From positions 840,001 through 872,000 of the forward strand of contig JAUIDC010000001.1 of assembly GCA_030429145.1 (NCBI GenBank): DNA of 32,000 nucleotides. The letters run 5' to 3'. The notes under the pieces are model-generated. The model saw only the letters and a program-made list of their open reading frames with translations. It did not search any database and was not told the origin of the DNA. The position numbers and the translations under genes are program-made. Below, piece after piece: positions 7,701 to 29,022 of the stretch (positions are counted from its first letter, which is position 1; every line of letters begins with the position of its first letter). The stretch comes from Candidatus Saccharimonadota bacterium (lineage in GTDB: Bacteria > Patescibacteriota > Gracilibacteria > Absconditabacterales > Absconditicoccaceae).

Positions 7701-8108
7701 ATGGCAACAACAAACCAAAGTACACAAAGACGAGATGAAATCTTAAAAGCTATCACAGAGTATTTCCCTCAGCCGTTTAAGAGCAATGAAGAGAAACGCT
7801 TTTTCCCAGAACATGATGCCTTTGATCACGTAGAGCTTGCTGGAATTTCTGACTTTCAGGAAGTAATGCTCGTTGCTCACCCAGACTATGAGCTTCCCAG
7901 CAAAGACCTTGTCATAGCATGGGACGGGATAAGTGAAGACCACGTGGGTATTGTCTCCGTAAAAATTACTTCTCCTTCACAAGAGAAGACAGTCATCATC
8001 AAATATGATAATGCTGCTGACGACATTATAGTGGAAGGAGTCGAGCCCGAACTAGCAGAACTCGTCAAAAAATATTTATTCTGCAGAGCTAAAGGACACA
8101 TTGATTGA
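7701..8108 (+). CDS. Hypothetical acidic protein (135 aa if TGA at 8106-8108 acts as the end)
   Basis: Intact ORF with no internal TGA, a consensus promoter upstream, and a canonical terminator 18 nt downstream. Its only nearby stop is TGA. Under table 25 the frame stays open to TAA at 8307-8309 (see findings). Confidence 0.5.
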   Translation: MATTNQSTQRRDEILKAITEYFPQPFKSNEEKRFFPEHDAFDHVELAGISDFQEVMLVAHPDYELPSKDLVIAWDGISEDHVGIVSVKITSPSQEKTVIIKYDNAADDIIVEGVEPELAELVKKYLFCRAKGHID

Positions 8109-10535: not shown

Positions 10536-11804
10536 ATGAAATTTTCGATTCTTGCTTGCTTACTATCTCTTGTTTTCGTATGAGCTGCTTTCGCTCATCC
10601 AGGGAATACCGCTTCCGATGGATGTCATTATTGTAGAACTAATTGTGATAAACGATGAGTACCTTGGAATCAAAGACATTGTCATGGTGGTTCTTCTTTT
10701 CCTTCAAGCTCTTACCCGAGCTATACTCCAAGTTATACCCCTCCCTCTTACACAACGCCAACCATATATAAAACTCCTACCGAAGAGTGCCAAGAAGAAT
10801 ATTGAATAAATGCCACCGTAGGAACTACTAGCAACACATGTAAATGTAAAGAATGATATAAGTGGGCTACATATGGAGATTATTGTGAACTCAAAACATC
10901 TTTCAATACATGTGAAGATCGAATTAATTGATATTTATGAACAGATTGAGAATGTTATTGCAACACATGATATGAGTGGAGCACTTCTCAAAATAAATGT
11001 ATAAGATCTCAGACTGATCAAGAACGCTGTATAGAACTCTATGGAATTAATAGTTATAGTAGTAATGATGGCATGTGCAGATGCCAAACAGGATATACAT
11101 TTAATTCCAAACATACTACATTATGATGTATATCTGCAAGTCTATCTTGTCAATTAAGCTTTTCTGACCCAAACGTTTATAGTGACTGAATACCAAATAC
11201 CGATGGAAGATATAGCTGCTATTGTAAAGAATGATATCAAAGGGATAACCAGTGAAAATGTACTTTAAATTCTACATCTACAATACACAATAATGAGCTA
11301 GAAGATGCCATTCAACGAATGTATAAAAATGGTCTTACAAGCTATGATTCTATAGAATGATTTATGCCTTTCAATAATATCACAAGGGAACAGGCATCTA
11401 AATTTTTCGTATGATTGAACCAATTCATACTAGCTATAAAATGAGGATCTAAAGAAACAAATGAAAATAAGTGCGTATTTAGTGACATTAGTAATGCTGA
11501 TAGAACTTTAATTAGTTATATTAGCAAAGCATGTGATAGTTGAATAATAATTTGAAGTAAATGAAAATTTAACCCCAATGGAAAATTAACTAAGGCACAA
11601 GCATTAACAATTCTTATTAGAATTATCAATGGGAAAATGGATGAAAGTTGAGAGATATGGTTCGAAAAATACTATCACTCTGCTGCCAATAAAGGATTGC
11701 TAGACAAACTAGATTACCACCTATTGGACCTAGATAGGGAAGATATAAATAGAGGTGACATGGCGAAACTTATTTACAGAACATATTTATATACAACTAA
11801 ATAA
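10536..11804 (+). CDS. Secreted cell-surface protein: signal peptide, Cys/His-rich N-terminal motif, Tyr/Ser/Thr/Pro linker, four CxCxxGY Cys repeats, C-terminal SLH domains (422 aa)
   Basis: Absent from the ORF track because it has 19 in-frame TGAs (hand count). With TGA as Gly it is a single frame from ATG at 10536 to TAA at 11802-11804. It begins MKFSILACLLSLVFV[G]AAFA. Next come HPGNTASDGCHYCRTNCDKR[G]VPWNQRHCHGG and then SSFPSSSYPSYTPSYTPPSYTTPTIYKTPT. Repeats such as CKCKE[G]YKW and CYCNT[G]YEW follow. The SLH-like C-terminus reads FSDISNADRTLISYISKACDS[G]III[G]SK[G]KFNPNGKLTKAQALTILIRII. Confidence 0.8.
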
Positions 11805-11822: not shown

Positions 11823-12959
11823 TTATACTCTCTTCACAGCCTCACTAACCACCTCAGCTATCCCCTCTTCCAATGGTGAAGGAATAACACTTTCAGGATT
11901 CAAATCTTTGACTGCATCAGCTAATGCTTCAGCGGCAGCTATGAAGTGATCTTGCGTAAGATTTTGAATTTTTCATTCTAACGCTCCTTTGAAAACACCA
12001 GGAAATACTAAGACATTATTAACTTGATTTGGATAATCTGAGCGACCAGTTGCCACGATGTAAGCGCCTCATTCTTTGGCTTCTTCGGGCATAATTTCGG
12101 GAGTTGGGTTGGACATAGCGAAGACGATAGGTTTGTCGGCCATCTTTTGGATATCGGTTCTGTCGAGGACATCAGGCTGGCTGACTCCGATGAAGACGTC
12201 TGCTCATGGGAGGACATCTTTGAGAGATCATTGAGCATTGTTGAGATTGTATGGGATGATTTGATCTTTGTATTCATTACTGTTTCCACGTCACTCATAG
12301 AGTGCTCATTTGCTGTCAACGAGAACGATGTGTTTGACTCATCGAGCAATGAGAAGCTTTGCGATAGCTATCGCTGCCGCTCATGCGCCAGACATGACGA
12401 TTTTGATTTGTTCTTTGTCCTTGTTCACAAGTTTGAGAGAGTTTTGTAATGCAGCGAGTACGACAATAGCTGTACCGTGTTGATCGTCATGAAAGACTGG
12501 GATGTCGAGACGTTTTTTGAGTTGCTCTTCGATATAGAAACAGTTTGGCGCTTTGATATCTTCAAGATTGATGCCACCAAATGTCGGTGCAAGATTTTCG
12601 ACTATAGAAATAATTTCGTCAGGGTCTTGCGTCTTGAGTACAAGTGGCACCGCATTGACTCCACCAAACGTTTTGAAAAGGAGTGCTTTTCACTCCATGA
12701 CCGGTAGTCCTGCCATAGCCCCAATATTACCAAGACCCAGAACTGCACTTCCGTCGGAGATAACTGCGATAGTATTTCCTTTTCGAGTATAGTCATATGC
12801 TTTCTCTGGATCTGCTTCGATAGCTTTACATGGCTCTGCCACGCCAGGAGAGTAGAAAATAGAGAGATCTTCTCTCGTTTTTGCTGATGCTTTGGTGGTA
12901 ATTTCTATCTTTCCTTTGAGCTTTTCATGTGCTTCAAGTGATGCTTTTTTGTAGTCCAT
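11823..12959 (-). CDS. NAD(P)-dependent malic enzyme, short form (378 aa)
   Basis: A single frame with 9 in-frame TGAs (hand count). It contains ...[11 protein letters not shown]...[23 protein letters not shown][G][10 protein letters not shown]...[15 protein letters not shown]...IVMSGA[G]AAAIA..., the hallmark malic-enzyme motifs. TAA stop at 11823-11825. Confidence 0.9.
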
Positions 12960-13057: not shown

Positions 13058-14407
13058 ATGCAAGAGATACACACAGCAACAGAAGACACCGCAGGAAGCG
13101 AACCGATACTGTTTCCTGAGGAGCCACTGAAAAAAAAACTGATCCGCAACAGCTTTTGGTTGTATTTTTTCTCGTTTATCGTCGCCCCAACTGGGTATAT
13201 TATTAAGGTAATCGCTTCGCGTGAACTCTCGGTTGAGGATATTGGTATATTCTATTCGGTACTGGGAATTATTAGTCTGATTTCTACGTACAATGACCTC
13301 GGTCTGACCGAATCTATGCAATACTTTTTGCCACACTACCTGATCGACAAGAACTTCAAGAAAGCAAAGTCGATGCTTCAGTTTACGTTGGTGTCTCAGC
13401 TGATCAGTAGTGCACTTATTATCGTAGCACTCCTCTTTCTGGCACCTTGGCTGGCAACTCACTACTTTCAATCACCACTGGCACTCCCACTTCTCCAACT
13501 ATTCTGTATCTACTTCCTCATCATCAATACTTTTCAAATGATTCAGTCGCTCTTTATCGCGACACAAAAAGTAAAGCGGTCACAAGGTATTGAATGAGTG
13601 AGAATGTGGACAATAGTTCTTTTTGTCTTTCTTGGTTGGCAGTTAGATATCTTTAGTCTCAATCTGTTTATGTCATATCGGTTGATCGGACTGGCTCTTG
13701 CGACGATAGTTGGAGTGATCGCTGCCCGAAAGCACTTTTGATGGCTGAGCAAATACAAGAGTGAAATAGACCGAGCATCGATCAAGAAACGATTTGGCTA
13801 CGCATTCTGGGTGATCATTGGGACGAATGCGACGATACTTTTGACACAGATAGACCAACAATTTGCGCTTTATTTCTTTGGCGCAGAAAGTGCCGGATAT
13901 CGAACAAACTACCTCACCCTCTTTAACAGCATGGCAGTTATCTGCACGCCACTGATAGGATATCTTTTCCCACTGCTCAACGAGCTCAATAAGAAAAATG
14001 AGAGAACAAAGATAAGACTACTCAATCGTGCACTCTATGCTGGATTTTTCGCTATCGGTTTGGTGCTTGGGGTAGTTGCATACTTCTGGGGACCTGAGAT
14101 TGCGGTGCTACTCTTTGGAGAGAAGTTTAGATTTTCATGAGAGCTCTTTATCGTGAGTGCACCATTTCTTTGGCTTGTTCCTATCATGGGTATCCAGTTC
14201 CAAAACCTTGCCAGTCATGGTATGGTGAAACAAAGAGTTGGTGTGTTACTCCTCGGTGTTGCAGTAAACTGTGTTGTCAGCATCGTGCTTATGCGTGCTA
14301 TTGGTATCACTGGTATCATCTACGGTACTGCTGCTGGACAAGCTTCTGCTATCATCGCATCATTTATCATCCAACATATCCATCGTCGTCGTCATGCTTC
14401 AGTATAA
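13058..14407 (+). CDS. Polysaccharide/oligosaccharide flippase, MOP (Wzx-like) family (449 aa)
   Basis: Track ORFs 13058-13597, 13811-14140 and 14153-14407 are in the same frame, joined via TGA at 13595, 13739 and 14138. The protein is polytopic and hydrophobic with a typical Wzx-like profile. TAA stop. Confidence 0.7.
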
Positions 14408-15701
14408 TATCGTCACAGGAAAAAACGGAACAGTAAGGCGGTCAAACCGACAAAGTTTTTTGGATAGAGCGATACAAACTGAGTGAGACGAGAAAATAAG
14501 TCTGCTTATGCTCTGCTACAATCATATCGATCAGTTCTTTACTGCGCTAGATAGAGTAGATAGAGAACCAAGACGCAAAAATTTTGTTATCACTATCGTA
14601 CAAAATTCTGATCAGGACGATGCGAAAAAAGCTTTTGAAGAAAGAATTTCAAGTTATAAAAATATCAATGTCCTCTACCCTAAGCACAATCTTGGTTCTG
14701 CATGAGGCTATGCGCTCGGACAAGAGTATATTCTCAGCAGATGATATTCGCACCTCATCATGCTTGAGGATGATGTTGACCTCTATGACGATGATACTAT
14801 CTCAGCGACTATTGATGCCATAGAACACGACAAACAGGTACTTTTCATCAACGCTCCAGTAAATACTGATGGCGACCATTCTCGATACGTCCAATACGCC
14901 TGCTACCCTACTTCCCTCCTCGGACAGGCTGGTATTATCGATCCAAGATTTTACTTTAGAGCAGAAGATCTAGAATGGAGAGTAAGAGTAGAGAACGCGA
15001 TCAAAACCTATCACTATACAAAAACTATCGTTGAGAGAAACTATTTTCATCCTTATCTTAAAGGAGCGAACAATAGCGGCTCACGAATCTACTTCTCCCT
15101 CAGAAACCAACTATGGATGTTCCACAAACACCGCCAATGATTTTTGCAATTTTCTCTCATACTGGCACAGTACATTGCATATGGATTTCTTACCTTTCTT
15201 AGGAGTGGAAAACTCCTGATAGTAGCGTGTATCTGGCATGCTATCATTGATGGAACAGGTAAGTATAAACCGTTGGAGTATCATGGAGAGATGATAAGAT
15301 ATTTTTGAGAGTTTAAAAAAGTGATGGTGAAGGATATTGGATTTAAGTCGAAAGAGGTATGATTTGAAGCGCTAGAAGAGTGAATGAATATAAGAAATAT
15401 CATTGCGAGAACCTCGCTTGCATGATGAGATAGAGTGCATCTTTCAGCCTATTCGGGGTCGCTGGTGACGAGTGGTTGACTTCAGCCCGTATGGATGAAC
15501 TTCATTGCATGTCTGCAAAAACTTCTGGTGATTGAACATCTCAATCGACACAAGAAAGAACTGCAGGGAAAGATATTATCACAGTGAATCTTCTCGCAGT
15601 TGATTAATATATTATTGTTTTTGCCGTGTGTATTGCTATGATTAGCATCATCACTCGTAGCATCTCTGCGGATTTTATGCTCTACGCTCTTGAGAAAATA
15701 G
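14394..15701 (+). CDS. Family 2 glycosyltransferase (rhamnosyltransferase-like core) with an uncharacterised C-terminal third
   Basis: Frame 0 is open from ATG at 14394 (a 14-nt overlap with the flippase) to TAG at 15699-15701. Motifs include ISLLMLCYNH, NLGSA[G]GYALGQ...[G]YSHLIMLEDDV and YFSLRN. About 12 in-frame TGAs. The start (14394, 14460 or 14508) and the status of the last ~130 codons are uncertain. Confidence 0.6.
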
Positions 15702-17682: not shown

Positions 17683-18707
17683 GTGATAAGGATAATCCGT
17701 TGTATATAAAAGCCTGTAAAAGAGAGTCTCTTTTTCGAACAGGTGCTGACGACTATGCCAATATAAAGATTCCCCAAAGGGTCAAAGAGTTTGAAAATCT
17801 GCAAAAAACAGGAGATCGTCAGCAAGACGAATTCGCTTTTTTACATTCTCTTGGAACGTTTCCACGTGGGTTATCCCTCGGTTCGTGAGGTGGAAGTTAT
17901 GAGTTGAAGCTACTACAAGAGTGAATAGTAGACCATTTTGTCTTTATTGATATTAGTGAACAAGCCCTCGAGACCCTGCAGAACAATGCTAAAAAACTTG
18001 GCCTCAGTGAGAAGATTGAAACGCGTGTACAAGATTTTAACTTTCTGGATCTCCCTGCAAATAGCTATGATCTCGTGAGCTGTCAAAACATGCTTCATCA
18101 TATCATCAATCTCGAAGAGTGTTTGCACGAGATCAACCAGTCATTAACTCCTGAGGGCATCTTTGTTACCAATGAGTGTATTGGGGAAAACAAGATGTAC
18201 TGGTCTGATGCAAAGATGAGCTTCGTAAAAACCTTTCAGACTGCACTTGCTGAAAAAGGTATAGAAAGCAATGAATATATTAGAACGAGTCCTACAGTTC
18301 TGACAAATAACTGCCCTTTTGAATGTATTAGAAGTGCTGAGCTCTACGATATTATCCAGCACTATTTTGGCGAGACAAAAGTAAAAGAGAATGCATATGG
18401 TCACCTCTGGCATGCACGAAATGCATTGAGTGATAATAGGTCTGATACCTATTTTGCACTACTAGAAACATTCGACAAATTTGTCAGAGAAGAGAAACTT
18501 CTGAGACCCAATCTCCTGTTTGGTATCTACAAAAAATCTCAGAAGCCACTACTAGAAACCAATAGCTGGTCTACAAGTGAGATGAAAAAACAGATCGGCG
18601 TAAGCAGATTCAGCGAACAAGCACTCATGCAACGATGAACGAAGACACAACAAAAACTACCAGGTCTCTATAAGTTTTTAAAACGTCTTTACTTCAAACT
18701 AAGATAA
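17673..18707 (+). CDS. Class I SAM-dependent methyltransferase (344 aa)
   Basis: Track ORFs 17673-17888 and 18075-18638 are in the same frame. Motif I reads LSLGS[G]GGSYE, followed by VFIDIS and DLVSCQNMLHHI. TGAs at 17886, 17922 and 18636. TAA at 18705-18707 overlaps the next ATG (TAATG). Confidence 0.75.
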
Positions 18708-19495
18708 TGAAACCTCAAGTATCGATAGTGATTCTCAACTACAATACACCCGAACTAACAACCGCATGTGTGCAGTCTCTCATTGCACATACAGCAGAGA
18801 TTTCCTATGAGATCATCGTGGTGGAGAACGGATCGAAGCCAGCTAGTAGAGAGTACTTTGAGCAATATCTTACTGACCTTCCATATGTGCATGCCGTCTA
18901 CTCAGAAAACAATCTTGGTTTTGGCTGAGGTAATAATTTTGGCTACAAGCACGCTGAATGAGACTATATTTTCTTTTTAAATAGTGATACCATCATTTGA
19001 GAAAATTCGATCAAAATTCTCTACGATCACTATACAAATTTAGAAAAAACAACGAAAGTATGATTTCTTGCACCAAGACTCTACTACGACCATGAGTTGA
19101 CCAAAAAACAGATGTTCGGCACGAAAGCACCTACGTTTTGAGACGTTTTACTCTACAATATTCCAGGCCTTAAAAACATTTGGAAGAAGAGATATGACCA
19201 ATTTCGCTATGCTGACCGAGACAGAGATAGCGACAAAGAGATCGGTAATGCAGGTGGCCCAGCATTTATGTGTTCAAGAAAATGCTTTGATGACATAGGA
19301 AGGTTTGATGAAAGATTTTTTCTCTACATGGAAGAGTTTGATACAGCCATGAGGCTACATAAAAAATGATATCACAGTTTCTTCACTGCAAAGACAAGCA
19401 TCGTTCATCTCGAAGATCAATCCCCAAAGATAAAACGAAAAAAGCTGAAGATTTCACTCTCCAGCATGTGTAAGTTTTTTTGGAAGTATTTGTAG
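18707..19495 (+). CDS. Family 2 glycosyltransferase (262 aa)
   Basis: Contains MKPQVSIVILNYNTPELT...IIVVENGS...NLGFG[G]GNNFG...IFFLNSD...GPAFMCSRKCFDDIGRFDERFFLYMEEFD. Six in-frame TGAs. TAG stop at 19493-19495. Confidence 0.8.
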
Positions 19496-19574
19496 TTACG
19501 AACCAGCCTGCATTGTTTCTTCGGTATCGACATCTACTTTTCAACTTCTCTCATCAATTTCTGCTTCCATGGTT

Positions 19575-19586
19575 CATAGTCTGGCG
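19575..19586 (+). repeat. Copy A of the 12-mer CATAGTCTGGCG
   Basis: Exact match to the reverse complement of 20631-20642, and an 11/12 match to 20734-20745. It lies in the spacer between the two convergent GT2 genes. Confidence 0.8.
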
Positions 19587-19687
19587 TAAGGACGGTTCGT
19601 TGTTTAACGGACGTCTTTTAGGGTATAATAACCACGATAAAAAAGACAATAGATATACAAAAAATATATTGATATTCTCATCTCATG

Positions 19688-20578
19688 CTAAGAACTCCTA
19701 GTCTTTTTTATGCCAAAAATACGATTACTTATCTGCACATAAAAAGAGATGATCTTATGAGAATTTGTCTTTGTAATTAACTTCCATACGATGGCAGAGA
19801 CTAACTTAAATAGTAATATTACTAGTAATTTTACTGTTGGGTAACCTAGTTTCTTATAAACATTGTATTGTCGTTTCAATACGGTGAATAATGATTGTTC
19901 CTTAAAACTCTTTACCTCATGTATTCTATACATGAATGTATAGTGAGGAATAACTTTAATGACATATTTTTGTGTAAACTGTAAATGGTAATCCCAATCT
20001 GCAAACAATCATGTTGTTTCATCAAACCTTATTTGAGCATCAGAGCGAAAGAGAGTCCCGCCAAATCCTAACGCATTATTATTACTTAAGAAGTCTTTGC
20101 TTGTAAGATGTATTTCTTTTTCTACGTTTAATAATACTTTTTCTGTATCTATTTTCTTTCCTTCTGCATTAATGTAGATTCTTTGTCAAGCGATGGCTCA
20201 TAGTGATACATCGTCCTGTAATTTCTCATATAACAACCTCAGAGAGGCGTGATCACAAAATTTATCATCATCGGATAAAAAAATAAAATACTTGCCTGCT
20301 ACCATATCAAGAGCTTTATTCCAATTGGGGATCATTCATATATTTTGATCATTATGGTAGTACCTAATACTAGGTGAGATAGTTTTATATGATTCCATCA
20401 ATAATGCCGTTTCATGGTTATCACTATTATCAACAATGATAATTTCCCCCTCGACATTATATAAACAATCTTGAGATAAACAGCTCTCTATACATTCTTG
20501 TAAATAATGTGGACGATTGTATGTTGGAATTAATATAGATATTTCAGGTGTTACACAAAAATTTTTATCTTTCAGCAT
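19688..20578 (-). CDS. Family 2 glycosyltransferase (296 aa)
   Basis: Track ORFs 20336-20578 and 19688-20008 are in the same frame, joined through four TGAs (20336, 20198, 20186, 20009). Motifs include ISILIPTYNRP, IIIVDNSD and FIFLSDDD. Confidence 0.8.
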
Positions 20579-20601
20579 CTGGCGGTATGCTTTTAAAGAT
20601 A

Positions 20602-20634
20602 CAAAAAAGGGCGACTAACCATCCTCAAGCCGCC
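20602..20634 (-). terminator. Terminator-like hairpin inside the leader
   Basis: The minus-strand RNA reads GGCGGCU (20628-20634), an 11-nt loop, AGUCGCC (20610-20616), then CUUUUUUG. The 5' arm shares 3 nt with the 3' strand of the 11-bp helix. Confidence 0.4.
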
Positions 20635-20642
20635 AGACTATG
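20631..20642 (-). repeat. Copy C (inverted) of the 12-mer CATAGTCTGGCG
   Basis: The plus strand reads CGCCAGACTATG, the exact reverse complement of copy A. Confidence 0.8.
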
Positions 20643-20733
20643 TCACCAAGATACCCCCAACGAAGGGAAGTACTCAGAAGAGAATAGCTAATCGCCTTCT
20701 CTTGCATTAAGGGTATGTCGTCTTAGTGTATAA

Positions 20734-20744
20734 CATAGTCTGGC
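20734..20744 (+). repeat. Copy B of the 11-mer CATAGTCTGGC
   Basis: Exact 11-mer match to copy A. It forms a perfect 11-bp inverted repeat with 20632-20642. Confidence 0.8.
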
Positions 20745-20756
20745 AGTAGCAGTATA

Positions 20757-20788
20757 CAAAAAAGAACCACCTTCTGCAAGATGATTCT
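20757..20788 (-). terminator. Rho-independent terminator after FkbM 20817-21671
   Basis: The minus-strand RNA reads AGAAUCAUCUU, loop GCAG, AAGGUGGUUCU (an 11-bp stem with two G-U pairs), then U6. Confidence 0.6.
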
Positions 20789-20816
20789 TTTAGTCGGTTT
20801 CCTGACTATAGGATGC

Positions 20817-21671
20817 TTACTCTCCTTTCCAAAAGTGACAATCGTGGTCATCGACCCAGTTATGATGAGTGAAACCGTATGATTTCATGAGCTGAATTGT
20901 TGCTTCTTTTGTAGGTACGTGAGGCATAATTTCGATGACGACGTCGCACTCAGACAACCCCGTCAGTAGCTCCTCCATTCCTTTCAGTACTTCGTATTCA
21001 AATCATTCTACATCCATAACGATGAGATCTGGCTTGATAGCAAGATGCATACCGTCGTATCTTTTCACAGGTACAGATATGAACTTTTCATGACTAGCAA
21101 GCTCATTGGATTTCACCATCTTGCTCGAAGCGTCATTTTCTGCTATGTACTCAAAGAGCGTTTCTCCATCGTGTTCTCCCAGACAGCAATTGTAGAGATA
21201 CGTTTTCTCTTCTACCTCAGAGAGGATTGTGTTGATCTTCAGTGTTCTAAATGTTGCTGGACTTGGTTCAAAACAGTAGACCTCATAGTCATGGTTTTTT
21301 GCGAGTTCAATAGCGTATCTTCCGATATGTGTACCGATGCTCAGAAATGTTTTGCGTTCGTTGTTTTTCGTTTTTTTGATATTATTTTTTATCACAGCCT
21401 GTACCTCTGGCTCGTAGTCAGGGATAAGTACTGTCCAGTGGTTGACGGTGCTACCGAGAAAGGTACCAAAGGGCGTTTTGAAAATAAATGGCTTATGAAA
21501 AAGCCTATGAGCCTTTGAGACTACCCTTCCCAAGGTGCCTAGCAGTACCGTATTGATCGTATAGAGCAACGCCAAAGCCAGATATCTTCGCATAAAGTCG
21601 ATACTTCATGAGATCTTTATATACCGAGGTATAGATGCAACTTTACTGAGAAGTCTTTTGATTTTCTTCAT
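20817..21671 (-). CDS. FkbM-family methyltransferase (284 aa from the upstream ATG)
   Basis: Track ORF 21003-21593 continues through TGA at 21003-21005 to TAA at 20817-20819 (...MDVE[G]FEYEVLKGMEELL...SYGFTHHNWVDDHDCHFWKGE). An in-frame ATG at 21669-21671 lies 3 nt after the GT9 stop and gives MKKIKRLLSKVASIPRYIKIS[G]SIDFMRRY.... The alternative start is 21593. Confidence 0.75.
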
Positions 21672-21674
21672 CAA

Positions 21675-28442: not shown

Positions 28443-28479
28443 CGTCTATCTCTCACTATCTTGAACTAAAATGCTGATC

Positions 28480-29022
28480 TACATATTCACATATTGTATG
28501 ATATATTGTCTGATGACACTCTTGGATTCTTGCTGTGTCATCTGAAGGGACAACGAGTGCTATATCACTAAGAGGTGCTATCTTACCTCCTCACTTGCCC
28601 AAGAGTCCTAAGACAGTCATCTTTTTCTCTTTTGCTACTTTAATCGCTTGGATAATATTTGCTGAGTTACCACTTGTGGAAATAGCGATAAGCAGATCCT
28701 CCTCTTTTCCGATACCTGCAACCTGTTTTGCAAAAATCTGCTCATAGCCATAGTCATTTCATATAGCAGTAATGATAGACGTGTCCGTAGTCAGTGCGAT
28801 TGCTGGTAGAGAATCTCTTTCCGTCTTGTATCTACCAACAAGCTCTGCAGCCCAGTGTTGCGCGTCAGCAGCGCTCCCCCCATTACCACAGATGAGTATT
28901 TTATGACCGTTCCCCAGCGAGGAAACTACAAGGTTGATCGCTTGCTGCATCAACTCATACTGCTCATCAATAAACTTCTTTTTGACCTCAGCAGACTGAT
29001 AAAAGTACTCTTTCATATCCAT
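28480..29022 (-). CDS. gmhA: Phosphoheptose (sedoheptulose-7-phosphate) isomerase, SIS domain (180 aa as read)
   Basis: Contains ...[24 protein letters not shown]...[16 protein letters not shown][G][13 protein letters not shown]...[14 protein letters not shown]...[14 protein letters not shown]. Two in-frame TGAs. As read, the gene ends at TAG 28480-28482 just after a (TA)4 tract (see findings). Confidence 0.8.

What the first reader, a model, noticed from the sequence alone, without database searches (positions are those of the whole stretch)
19575..20788. Thrice-repeated 11-12-mer and a structured leader bracketing the last GT2 gene: RNA switch or DNA inversion site
CATAGTCTGGC(G) occurs at 19575-19586 (+), at 20734-20744 (+) and inverted at 20631-20642. 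All three copies lie in the non-coding flanks of GT2 19688-20578. An exact 11-mer is not expected to recur three times by chance within 1.2 kb.

On the minus-strand transcript the region upstream of the gene reads in this order:
- the terminator of the preceding FkbM gene;
- a -10-like TATACT;
- an 11-bp helix (GCCAGACUAUG with CAUAGUCUGGC) that encloses about 90 nt with two nested helices of 6 bp and 7 bp;
- a terminator-like hairpin (GGCGGCU...AGUCGCC-U6) whose 5' arm overlaps the 3' strand of the 11-bp helix;
- CCGCCAG-AUG, where the segment covering the start codon can pair with the same CUGGCGG.

Mutually exclusive pairings of one segment with an upstream strand, a terminator arm and the start-codon region are the grammar of a riboswitch or attenuator.

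Alternatively, the repeats could be recombinase targets. Copies B and C are inverted repeats flanking a 91-bp segment. Copies A and C are inverted repeats flanking the whole gene. That arrangement could support phase-variable inversion of a surface-glycan gene. No recombinase gene is present in the window, and I could not match the leader to a known riboswitch class.
Basis: seen in the sequence. Interest (0 to 1): 0.65.

Follow-up and report, generated by a model that had tools for sequence, protein, structure and literature searches.

The report
Conserved leader RNA with three-way repeat
The three repeats belong to a previously undescribed, conserved folded RNA that sits in front of a swappable sugar-coat gene in tiny bacteria with an altered genetic code; the third repeat is a preserved fragment of the gene that this RNA originally controlled.

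Summary
CATAGTCTGGC occurs exactly three times, at the stated coordinates, and nowhere else in 41 kb of the source contig.

Five other lineages carry the same layout. Their proteins are 52-74% identical to the window's, and all use TGA as a glycine codon.

Copies C and B are the 5' and 3' arms of a ~113-nt hairpin on the gene-sense (minus) strand. A conserved promoter-like site lies just upstream. A terminator-like hairpin follows and overlaps arm B. The helices show compensatory and G-U changes, and the sense strand folds 8-13.5 kcal/mol better than the antisense strand. No Rfam family matches.

Copy A is not an independent flank motif. It lies in a ~100-nt relic of an FkbM-type methyltransferase gene (FkbM2) that follows this leader in four relatives. 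There the site is codons Ala-Pro-Asp-Tyr and is the longest invariant stretch of the gene (17 nt; shuffle p about 0.007). It drifted in the one lineage that lost the hairpin.

Best reading: a new cis-regulatory leader RNA. Its 3' arm can pair with the 5' arm, the terminator, the start-codon region or the downstream site.

DNA inversion between B and A is not excluded. No recombinase gene and no orientation variant was seen.

The parts
20817..21674 (-). FkbM-family methyltransferase gene (FkbM1), upstream of the leader
   Evidence: Pfam PF05050, E = 8.4e-13. Orthologs at 67-72% identity in syntenic loci.
20764..20787 (-). Terminator hairpin of FkbM1, flanked by A and T runs (20758-20763 and 20788-20791). 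Its loop carries a conserved -35-like TTGCAG at 20774-20779.
   Evidence: The stems covary in six lineages while the loop CTTGMA is kept.
20751..20756 (-). -10-like TATACT, invariant in all six lineages. It lies 16-17 nt after the -35-like hexamer and 6 nt before the 5' arm.
   Evidence: Alignment A3. The role as a promoter is inferred and not mapped.
20730..20744 (-). 5' arm of closing helix P1 (sense GCCAGACUAUGUUAU). Contains copy C of the finding (20734-20744).
   Evidence: C-to-U in L009 and L012 keeps pairing as G-U.
20707..20736 (-). Candidate leader mini-ORF MLYTKTTYP*. It starts at the AUG inside the 5' arm and stops at the conserved UAA in P2.
   Evidence: In frame in 5 of 6 lineages, with lengths 27/24/21/27/24 nt, always ending Pro-stop. 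Translation is not shown.
20705..20713 (-). P2 5' strand (CCCUUAAUG)
   Evidence: Pairs with 20654-20662. Two pairs show compensatory double changes and three show one-sided compatible changes.
20678..20703 (-). Apical module: P3 (AAGAGAA / UUCUCUU) plus loop GGCGAUUAGCU. Nearly invariant in sequence in all six lineages.
   Evidence: Alignments A1 and A2. All 10 pairs never vary.
20663..20677 (-). Conserved 15-nt asymmetric internal loop on the 3' side (CUGAGUACUUCCCUU)
   Evidence: Left unpaired in the consensus fold. The sequence is largely conserved.
20654..20662 (-). P2 3' strand (CGUUGGGGG)
20631..20646 (-). 3' arm of P1 (GUGACAUAGUCUGGCG), the hub segment. Contains copy B (20631-20642). 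Invariant in six lineages.
   Evidence: It is complementary to the 5' arm (-23.7 kcal/mol), to the downstream site (-22.8) and to the start region (-15.6).
20603..20634 (-). Terminator-like hairpin GGCGGCU...AGUCGCC followed by U6. Its 5' strand overlaps P1 by GGC.
   Evidence: 7 bp, 97.6% of cells paired, with G-U/A-U variation. Enforcing it costs 1.2-7 kcal/mol relative to the MFE.
20576..20585 (-). Start-codon region CCGCCAGAUG, complementary to UCUGGCGG of the 3' arm. The same context starts FkbM2 in relatives.
   Evidence: 8-bp helix with one G-C to A-U covariation and one G-U change. The same context is shared in L005, L009, L010, L012 and even L004.
19688..20578 (-). GT2 glycosyltransferase gene (four in-frame TGA = Gly). 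It occupies the slot held by FkbM2 in relatives and is fused at the old FkbM2 start codon.
   Evidence: 52% identical to the L002 GT2. Junction.
19516..19616 (-). Relic of the FkbM2 coding sequence (about codons 75-108), now in the 3' untranslated region of GT2
   Evidence: blastx: SVKQRTVLTPDYEPWKQKLMREV against L005 FkbM2, 65% identity over 23 aa, E = 1.7e-6 against a 6-protein set. Nucleotide alignment.
19575..19586 (-). Copy A (sense CGCCAGACUAUG): the former Ala-Pro-Asp-Tyr codons of FkbM2, 12 nt complementary to the 3' arm
   Evidence: Exact in six lineages (four intact genes and two relics). The relic flanks are only 46-62% identical. It lies in the longest invariant run of FkbM2.
18707..19495 (+). 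Convergent GT2 gene (262 aa) that bounds the variable slot on the other side
   Evidence: 74% identical to the L002 ortholog. Present in all syntenic loci.

Best explanation
What it is. The three copies are parts of one sense-strand RNA device. It was built to control an FkbM-family methyltransferase gene (FkbM2), and in this window it controls the GT2 gene that replaced FkbM2.

Layout. A promoter is embedded in the terminator of the preceding gene (TTGCAG-17-TATACT). It would start a leader RNA at about 20744. The first ~113 nt fold into a long hairpin: P1 (copy C paired with copy B), a lineage-specific middle stem, P2, a 15-nt internal loop, and an invariant apical P3 with its loop.

The hub. 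The 3' arm (CAUAGUCUGGCG) has four alternative partners:
- (i) The 5' arm. A full P1 takes three G-C pairs from the terminator.
- (ii) The terminator 3' strand AGUCGCC, followed by U6.
- (iii) The start-codon region YCGCCAGA-UG.
- (iv) A 12-nt site downstream. This is codons 86-89 of FkbM2 in relatives, and the relic in the GT2 3' UTR here.

Proposed mechanism. Whatever opens or stabilises P1 sets the balance between read-through with translation and termination with start-site masking. The trigger could be a factor or ligand binding the invariant apical module, or a ribosome translating the 7-9-codon Pro-stop mini-ORF that begins inside the 5' arm.

Shown. The conserved hairpin, its strand, the overlaps, and the conservation of all four partner sites.

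Inferred. The transcription start, termination, the trigger, and what pairing with the downstream site does.
For: Conservation.
- The same layout is found in five other lineages whose proteins are 52-74% identical.
- In the L002 comparison, the only DNA that aligned at E below 1e-20 was 275 bp at 81% identity covering the leader.

Structure.
- RNAalifold recovers P1, P2 and P3.
- 98.2% of cells are paired, against 37-56% when partners are slid.
- 3 pairs have changes on both sides.
- 5 of 500 shuffles reach the covariation score.
- The middle stem differs in sequence in every lineage yet pairs in each.

Strand.
- The sense hairpin is 8-13.5 kcal/mol more stable than the antisense one and has 4-7 G-U pairs in all six lineages.
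- The 5' arm changed C to U in two lineages and keeps a G-U pair.

Switch geometry.
- Full P1 and the enforced terminator differ by only 1.2-7 kcal/mol.
- The helix between the 3' arm and the start region is 8 bp, with a G-C to A-U covariation.

Downstream site.
- The 17-nt run GCGCCAGACTATGAACC is the longest invariant stretch in four FkbM2 genes. The next longest is 8 nt. Codon-column shuffles reach 17 nt in 136 of 20,000 trials.
- The site is exact in both relics while their flanks are 46-62% identical.
- It drifted to GCACCAGATTATG in L004. That lineage lost the hairpin and the 3' arm but kept the terminator 3' strand and the start region.

Promoter elements are conserved.

Mini-ORF. It is in frame in 5 of 6 lineages.

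Copy number. Single copy per locus, with no hit elsewhere in 180 kb.
Against: Data limits.
- There are no transcript data. The start site, termination and regulation are all inferred.
- Only six lineages are available, so covariation statistics are modest. The tool's own documentation says relatedness alone can give such shuffle results in 5-25% of cases.

Features that carry no covariation signal.
- P1 and P3 are nearly invariant. They carry little or no covariation evidence, and the constraint could act on sequence rather than pairing.
- The 3' arm and the downstream site never covary. Their pairing as RNA is inferred from conservation only, and a DNA-level role would give the same pattern.

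Weak points in the switch model.
- P1 and the terminator overlap by only 3 bp. They could largely coexist, which would make this a constitutive hairpin plus terminator rather than a switch.
- L009 has a C-A mismatch in the terminator. Its two changes fit an alternative pairing of AGUCGCC with the P3 loop instead.
- Keeping the downstream site after gene replacement, 1 kb away in a 3' UTR, needs an extra assumption under the RNA model.
- In L002 the mini-ORF is broken (ML*) and the start-region partner is missing, yet the hairpin is kept.

No ligand can be named, and the leader resembles no known aptamer.
Confidence: 0.55

Rival explanations
1. DNA inversion switch (a 'partial intergenic inverton'). 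The perfect 12-bp inverted repeats B (20631-20642) and A (19575-19586) would be targets of a site-specific recombinase encoded elsewhere. The recombinase would flip the segment between them. Here that segment is the whole GT2 gene with its start region. In relatives it is the start and first 85 codons of FkbM2. The result would be on/off phase variation of a surface-glycan modification. The RNA hairpin would be a separate feature that happens to share arm B.
For: - The inverted repeat is perfect and is conserved at synonymous sites.
- It is kept in non-coding relics after the cargo was swapped. An inverton needs both repeats whatever lies between them, so this fits.
- The site drifted in the lineage that lost B.
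- The locus is a variable surface-glycan cluster.
- Invertons with one repeat inside a gene are documented in many phyla (bioRxiv 10.1101/2023.03.11.532203).
Against: - No recombinase or invertase domain was found in the window's unannotated proteins.
- None appears among the called genes within about 8 kb in any related locus.
- All assemblies of three species from several samples have the same orientation: L002, L006 and L007; L012 and L013; and the window's contig, seen in 2 samples. No contig ends at a repeat.
- The repeat is only 12 bp, with no extended imperfect arms.
- The model gives no role to copy C or to the start-codon complementarity. It makes the identity of B with the arm of a covarying, strand-specific RNA helix a coincidence.
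- A direct copy (C) of a recombinase site would risk deletion of the gene.
Confidence: 0.18
2. Stand-alone small RNA. The promoter, the ~113-nt hairpin and the terminator would make a ~145-nt small RNA that ends at its own terminator. It would act by base pairing on the downstream 12-nt site, or with the convergent operon's transcript, which carries CAUAGUCUGGCG just before a hairpin plus U-run. It would not act as a cis leader.
For: - Promoter-like elements and a terminator-like hairpin with U6 bracket the element in all six lineages.
- 12-nt complementarity to a conserved distant site.
- On the + strand, copy A is followed within 0-4 nt by a hairpin and a U-run in both the window and L002. 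This is the layout of 3'-UTR-derived small RNAs.
Against: - The candidate seed (the 3' arm) is locked in a 15-bp helix of about -24 kcal/mol.
- The downstream gene has no room for its own promoter. Only about 30 nt lie between the U-run and the AUG, so it needs read-through.
- The start region is complementary to the same arm and covaries with it. This points to cis control.
- The + strand hairpins after copy A are weak, with z = -1.7 and +0.5.
Confidence: 0.12
3. DNA operator sites. GCCAGACTATG boxes (C, B inverted, A, and the shortened CGCCAGATG at the start) would be binding sites for a transcription factor that loops or represses the slot.
For: Four related boxes in direct and inverted orientation lie around a promoter and a gene start. 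L004 has a TrmB-like regulator gene inserted exactly where the hairpin was.
Against: - Compensatory changes in P2 and in the middle stem, which are not boxes, are not explained by protein binding to double-stranded DNA.
- Neither are the G-U-only changes in the 5' arm and the start box, nor the large sense/antisense folding asymmetry.
Confidence: 0.05
4. No function beyond history: chance recurrence plus a pseudogene remnant. Alternatively, a small mobile element (a MITE or an attC-like site) with terminal inverted repeats.
For: Copy A is indeed a gene remnant. The hairpin with conserved termini superficially resembles a MITE or an attC site.
Against: - The exact 14-mer is kept in two relics whose flanks are near random. 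At about 58% identity per base, the chance is about 5e-4 each.
- The leader is more conserved than the neighbouring genes.
- It is single copy in a complete 1.1-Mb genome and in 180 kb of loci.
- There are no hits in plasmid, phage, viral or JGI metagenome collections.
- The termini do not fit the attC core RYYYAAC/GTTRRRY, and the apex is invariant rather than variable.
Confidence: 0.04

Closest known systems
Transcriptional 'ON' riboswitches such as the pbuE/ydhL adenine riboswitch (own knowledge)
   Same: A promoter-proximal structured leader. The 3' strand of the closing helix P1 overlaps the 5' strand of an intrinsic terminator, so stabilising P1 favours read-through. The unpaired and apical nucleotides are conserved.
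   Different: No sequence or structure match to any Rfam family. No ligand is known. The overlap is only 3 bp. The fold is a single long hairpin rather than a multi-helix junction. The same strand also has a start-codon partner and a distant downstream partner.
Leader-peptide attenuators and arrest peptides (trp, erm, cat leaders; TnaC, which ends Pro-stop) (own knowledge)
   Same: A 7-9-codon ORF lies inside the 5' half of the leader. Translating it would melt the closing helix. It ends Pro-stop, a slow-termination context. Alternative hairpins precede a terminator and the main start codon.
   Different: The peptide sequence is not conserved apart from residues fixed by RNA pairing. No run of regulatory codons is evident. 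The ORF is broken in one lineage that keeps the hairpin. Its 5' UTR would be only about 8 nt. Translation is untested.
hok mRNA fold-back inhibition (the 5' tac element pairs with the 3' fbi element) and other long-range 5'UTR-ORF or 3'UTR pairings (own knowledge)
   Same: A 12-nt segment in the 5' leader is perfectly complementary to a site far downstream in the same mRNA. Here that site is in the 3' UTR, about 1 kb away. It is kept by selection beyond coding needs.
   Different: No toxin-antitoxin context. The pairing is inferred and not shown. The downstream site began as coding sequence and survived gene replacement.
Partial intergenic and intragenic invertons (Chanin et al., bioRxiv 10.1101/2023.03.11.532203; Milman et al. 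2023 as cited there)
   Same: One inverted repeat lies in the intergenic leader and the other inside the gene. The locus is for surface glycan synthesis. The repeats are conserved at synonymous positions.
   Different: No invertase nearby and no orientation variants among assemblies. The repeats are only 12 bp. One repeat is also the arm of a covarying, strand-specific RNA helix.

Membership tests
Any described RNA family (Rfam 15: riboswitches, leaders, sRNAs, ribozymes) | Covariance-model match at or above the family's gathering score | tested here: not met
   No hits at gathering score in the whole window. In 20500-20900 the best E-values were 3.2 and 5.8, at 13 bits against gathering scores of 41-49.
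Terminator-based cis-regulatory leader (riboswitch or attenuator expression platform) | Promoter, then a structured leader, then a GC-rich hairpin with a U-tract directly upstream of the regulated ORF | tested here: met
   Conserved TTGMAS-16/17-TATACT, a hairpin, GGCGRCU/AGUCGCC plus U6, and an AUG about 30 nt later in W, L005, L009, L010 and L012. This is computational only.
Terminator-based cis-regulatory leader (riboswitch or attenuator expression platform) | Mutually exclusive alternative pairings that involve the terminator strand | tested here: inconclusive
   P1 and the terminator share only GGC. The two states differ by 1.2-7 kcal/mol and could partly coexist.
Riboswitch | Direct binding of a small ligand to the aptamer | not testable with these tools
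   An invariant apical module and internal loop are compatible with a binding site. This needs in-line probing or ITC.
Structured functional RNA in general | Helices supported by compensatory substitutions across homologs | tested here: met
   3 pairs have double changes and several have G-U intermediates. 98% of cells are paired. 5 of 500 shuffles reach the score. The middle stem is lineage-specific but always pairs. The support is modest because there are only six sequences.
Leader-peptide attenuation | A short translated ORF in the leader whose translation remodels the downstream structure | tested here: inconclusive
   The mini-ORF is in frame to the conserved stop in 5 of 6 lineages and is broken in L002. 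Translation is untested.
Inverton (site-specific DNA inversion) | Inverted repeats flanking the invertible segment | tested here: met
   12-nt perfect inverted repeat A/B, conserved in six lineages.
Inverton (site-specific DNA inversion) | A cognate serine or tyrosine recombinase, usually encoded nearby | tested here: not met
   None in the window's unannotated proteins. None among the precomputed Pfam hits of genes within about 8 kb in nine related loci. The rest of the genome could not be read.
Inverton (site-specific DNA inversion) | Both orientations present in a population | not testable with these tools
   No reads are available. All independent assemblies show one orientation. This is only weak evidence.
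Integron gene cassette / attC | Core sites RYYYAAC / GTTRRRY, a variable apex, arrays of cassettes, and an integron integrase | tested here: not met
   The termini are GCCAGACTATG / CATAGTCTGGC. The apex is invariant. There is a single element per locus and no integrase.
MITE / REP-like dispersed repeat | Many copies per genome | tested here: not met
   The two-arm pattern occurs once in a complete 1.1-Mb chromosome, and that was the only hit in the whole genome collection. One model hit per locus in 180 kb.

The most novel reading that the evidence does not exclude
A portable RNA 'regulatory socket' for surface-glycan genes in TGA-recoded ultrasmall bacteria. One invariant 12-nt hub strand toggles among four partners: the 5' arm (which holds the start of a Pro-stop leader peptide), the terminator, the main start codon, and a clamp site downstream of the cargo. 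The flanking partners (the leader upstream and the clamp site downstream) are kept by selection while the cargo between them is exchanged. FkbM2 was replaced by GT2 twice, with different junctions. In the window, the new gene even re-uses the old start codon. This would be a new class of cis-regulatory RNA. It would also be the first case of a coding-sequence fragment being retained solely as an RNA pairing partner after its gene was replaced.
Probability: 0.3. Interest if true: 0.8.

Novelty: new variant of a known kind. Interest (0 to 1): 0.62.

Why it matters
Almost nothing is known about gene regulation in Patescibacteria/CPR bacteria. A full-text search for 'Gracilibacteria' together with 'riboswitch' returned two papers. 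The one read mentions riboswitches only as possible engineered tools.

This is a concrete, conserved, strand-specific structured leader with clear testable parts. It sits at the entry of a variable glycan-modification slot, and surface glycans are likely to matter for the episymbiotic lifestyle of these organisms.

The data also give a natural experiment. A 12-nt site inside a gene is held invariant at synonymous positions. It survives as a relic after the gene is replaced. It decays only where the complementary leader strand was lost. This shows selection on a leader/downstream-site partnership.

If the DNA model is right instead, it would document an inverton in a CPR genome. Either outcome is informative.

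Tried and rejected
Searches that found nothing:
- Rfam at gathering score and at E up to 10: no family.
- tRNA and tmRNA scan: none.
- JGI metagenome scans with two patterns, CAAGAGAAGGCG...CATAGTCTGGCG and the P3-loop pattern: 0 hits.
- Viral contigs: 0 hits.
- Plasmid and phage BLAST of the leader: no match.
- GT2 protein homologs were at most 42% identical, so the GT2 gene could not be used to find related loci. FkbM1 orthologs worked instead.
- L011 and L014 to L017 lacked the element and added no new leader sequence.

Ideas considered and dropped:
- The 5' arm or the 3' arm is a duplicated FkbM fragment. Similarity to the FkbM2 site does not extend beyond the 11-12 nt (by eye from the sequences).
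- A conserved small protein is encoded from the AUG in copy A. The peptides in the window and in L006 are unrelated.
- GCCAGA is a general translation-start context. It is absent upstream of the other 30 genes in the window.
- Integron attC or MITE: see the membership tests.
- Hammerhead-like core in CUGAGUA: it does not fit CUGANGA, and other lineages have CUUAGUA.
Full report
**1.
- CATAGTCTGGC is present exactly at 19575-19585 (+), 20632-20642 (-) and 20734-20744 (+). With one mismatch allowed there are 4 matches against 0.43 expected, and 0 of 100 shuffles reached 4.
- Copies A and B are a perfect 12-nt inverted repeat. So are copies B and C.
- The fourth, one-mismatch match at 7880 is the codons H-P-D-Y-E of an unrelated ORF.
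- The gene between A and B is a GT2 glycosyltransferase (PF00535, E = 8.6e-25). It contains four in-frame TGA codons.
- The whole window reads properly only if TGA is a sense codon. In the malic enzyme at 11823-12959, six of eight aligned TGA positions match Gly in PDB 2a9f, two match Ala, and none matches Trp. This indicates code 25.
- The 261-nt stretch spanning the FkbM-GT2 spacer folds far better than shuffles (z = -6.4).
- No tRNA and no Rfam family is found.

**2. Relatives.**
- The source contig is a 54-kb Logan assembly. A further 8.8 kb of it carries no more copies.
- A scan of one genome per species for the two arms at 75-105 nt spacing gave a single hit, in the 1.1-Mb chromosome OZ246420.1.
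- That locus (L002) is a different organism. Its proteins are 52-74% identical and in the same order. The only DNA that BLAST aligns at E below 1e-20 is 275 bp at 81% identity covering the leader. The three 11-mers sit in the same arrangement.
- FkbM1 orthologs gave more syntenic loci.
- Six distinct lineages carry the element: the window, L002 (= L006 = L007), L005, L009, L010 and L012 (= L013).
- The gene behind the element varies. It is GT2 in the window and L002. It is an FkbM paralog (FkbM2) in L005, L009, L010 and L012.
- L008 and L015 to L017 have nothing between FkbM1 and the convergent GT2.
- L004 has a TrmB-like gene and a 499-aa gene inserted into the leader itself. Only the terminator 3' strand, the U-run and the start region are left in front of its FkbM2.

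**3. What copy A is.**
- Translating the spacer after the window's GT2 gives SVKQRTVLTPDYEPWKQKLMREV. This is 65% identical to residues 78-100 of L005 FkbM2. The nucleotide alignment shows a ~100-nt relic at about 19516-19616.
- Copy A is the codons Ala-Pro-Asp-Tyr (GCG CCA GAC TAT).
- The window's GT2 starts with the same CGCCAG-ATG-C context as FkbM2 in relatives. GT2 therefore replaced FkbM2 just after its start codon.
- L002 has a different left junction, and its relic begins right at the motif.
- In the four intact FkbM2 genes (62-79% protein identity, about 50% identical codons at conserved residues), the longest invariant nucleotide run in 858 nt is GCGCCAGACTATGAACC, 17 nt. The next longest is 8 nt. 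Shuffling codon columns reaches 17 nt in 136 of 20,000 trials.
- In the two relics the 14-mer CGCCAGACTATGAA is exact while the flanks are 46-62% identical.
- In L004, which lost the hairpin and the 3' arm, the site reads GCACCAGATTATG.
- The site is therefore under selection for something other than coding, and that selection tracks the presence of the complementary strand B.

**4. What copies C and B are.** They are the arms of a hairpin on the gene-sense strand. The parts below come from alignment A1 and RNAalifold.
- P1 has 15 bp.
- The middle stem is variable. It differs in sequence in every lineage but pairs in each.
- P2 has 9 bp: CCCUUAAUG / CRUUGGGGG. It shows A-U to G-C in L009, G-C to A-U in L010, and several G-U intermediates.
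- A 15-nt internal loop lies on the 3' side.
- P3 with its loop is invariant.

Counting a structure of P1, P2, P3 and the terminator gives these results:
- 98.2% of cells are paired, against 37-56% for slid partners.
- 3 pairs have changes on both sides.
- 5 of 500 shuffles reach the covariation score.

Two results point to an RNA of the sense strand:
- The sense strand folds 8-13.5 kcal/mol better than the antisense strand in all six lineages, with 4-7 G-U pairs.
- The 5' arm changed C to U in L009 and L012, which keeps a G-U pair.

A covariance model finds exactly one hit per locus (147-164 bits) and nothing else in 180 kb.

**5. Surroundings of the hairpin.**
- Upstream, the FkbM1 terminator has covarying stems. 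Its loop keeps CTTGMA. An invariant TATACT lies 16-17 nt further on and 6 nt before the 5' arm. This looks like a promoter nested in a terminator, but it has not been mapped.
- Downstream, GGCGRCU...AGUCGCC plus U6 is conserved. It shares GGC with P1. Enforcing it costs 1.2-7 kcal/mol relative to the minimum-energy fold.
- The start region YCGCCAGA-UG pairs with UCUGGCGR of the same strand over 8 bp. The pairs are G-C in the window and L012 and A-U in L005, L009 and L010. L012 also has one G-U change.
- Duplex energies with the hub strand are -23.7 kcal/mol for the 5' arm, -22.8 for the downstream site and -15.6 for the start region.
- AGUCGCC can also pair with the P3 loop GGCGAUU. The two changes in L009 fit that pairing and break the canonical terminator. 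This is unexplained.
- The AUG inside the 5' arm opens a mini-ORF of 7-9 codons. In five of six lineages it ends Pro-stop at the conserved UAA/UAG of P2, with lengths 27/24/21/27/24 nt. L002 has ML* and a frame-breaking length of 28 nt.

**6. Interpretation.**
- The best-supported reading is a new cis-regulatory leader RNA. Its invariant 3' arm is a hub with four alternative partners. It controls read-through and/or translation of whatever gene occupies the slot.
- The trigger is unknown. The invariant apical module suggests a bound factor or ligand. The mini-ORF suggests translation-coupled attenuation.
- The role of the downstream site is the weakest link. Conservation shows that it matters together with strand B, but not whether as RNA or as DNA.
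- A B/A DNA inversion (a partial intergenic inverton, as described in the paper read) explains the retention of the relic naturally. It has no recombinase and no orientation variant among independent assemblies. It also leaves copy C and the start-codon partner unexplained.
- My estimates are RNA leader 0.55, inverton 0.18, stand-alone small RNA 0.12, DNA operator 0.05, and no function or mobile element 0.04.

**7. Novelty and limits.**
- The element matches no described RNA family. It was found only in this narrow clade: six lineages, one copy each.
- JGI metagenomes, viral contigs, plasmids and phages gave nothing.
- The general logic (leader hairpin, terminator, start-site masking) is a known kind. 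The conserved downstream partner that outlives its gene is unusual.
- There are no transcript or read data. With six sequences the covariation support is real but modest.

Noticed in passing
whole window; e.g. 11823-12959 (-), 28456-29022 (-): TGA is a sense codon throughout. Reading TGA as sense roughly doubles the total ORF length. In the malic enzyme, six of eight aligned TGA positions match Gly in PDB 2a9f, two match Ala and none matches Trp. This indicates genetic code 25, as in Gracilibacteria and Absconditabacteria.
   Followed up: yes
L002 (OZ246420.1), whole locus: The record is labelled 'Candidatus Peribacteria' (phylum Peregrinibacteriota), yet its genes carry 2-7 in-frame TGA codons each. 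Either the label is loose or the recoded clade is wider than the name suggests.
   Followed up: partly
window 10536-11804 (+): This Cys-rich, apparently secreted protein gene has 19 TGA codons in 422. Its neighbours have 0-12. It stands out in codon usage.
   Followed up: no
slot between FkbM1 and the convergent GT2: window 19496-20816; L004 3554-6918; L005 8853-9942; L008 8650-8710: The slot holds different cargo in different relatives: GT2, FkbM2, a TrmB-like regulator plus a 499-aa protein plus FkbM2, or nothing. This looks like a recombination hot spot in the glycan cluster. The two GT2-bearing lineages have different junctions. By the leader sequence (judged by eye), each looks closer to an FkbM2-bearing lineage than to the other.
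   Followed up: partly
L004 3829-6060: A TrmB-like regulator gene and a 499-aa gene are inserted inside the leader. The 499-aa gene's stop codon abuts the surviving terminator 3' strand TTAGTCGCC-T6 and the start region GTCGCCAGATG. A protein regulator may have replaced the RNA element.
   Followed up: partly
window 20707-20736 (-): A mini-ORF, MLYTKTTYP*, starts at the AUG inside the 5' arm. In 5 of 6 lineages the equivalent ORF is in frame and ends Pro-stop at the conserved stop in P2. In L012 it reads through a UGA, which is Gly in code 25.
   Followed up: partly
window 19587-19620 (+); L002 2903-2925 (+): On the + strand, copy A (CAUAGUCUGGCG) is followed within 0-4 nt by a hairpin and a U-run in both GT2-bearing lineages. 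The hairpin sequences are unrelated. The convergent operon's transcript may end with a segment complementary to the leader's 5' arm. The hairpins are weak.
   Followed up: partly
window 20610-20616 and 20690-20696 (-); alignment A1 columns 58-64 and 139-145: The terminator 3' strand AGUCGCC can pair with the P3 loop GGCGAUU as well as with GGCGRCU. The two substitutions in L009 (GGCGGUU, AAUCGCC) keep the first pairing and break the second.
   Followed up: partly
window 20764-20787 (-): The FkbM1 terminator is flanked by A and T runs, so it could act in both directions. Its loop holds the -35-like hexamer of the next promoter. The stems covary in six lineages.
   Followed up: partly
window 14271-15701 (+) and 13058-14407 (+): Two long code-25 ORFs overlap by 137 nt. 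The real start of the second, a GT2-like protein with a weak Pfam hit, is probably further downstream.
   Followed up: no
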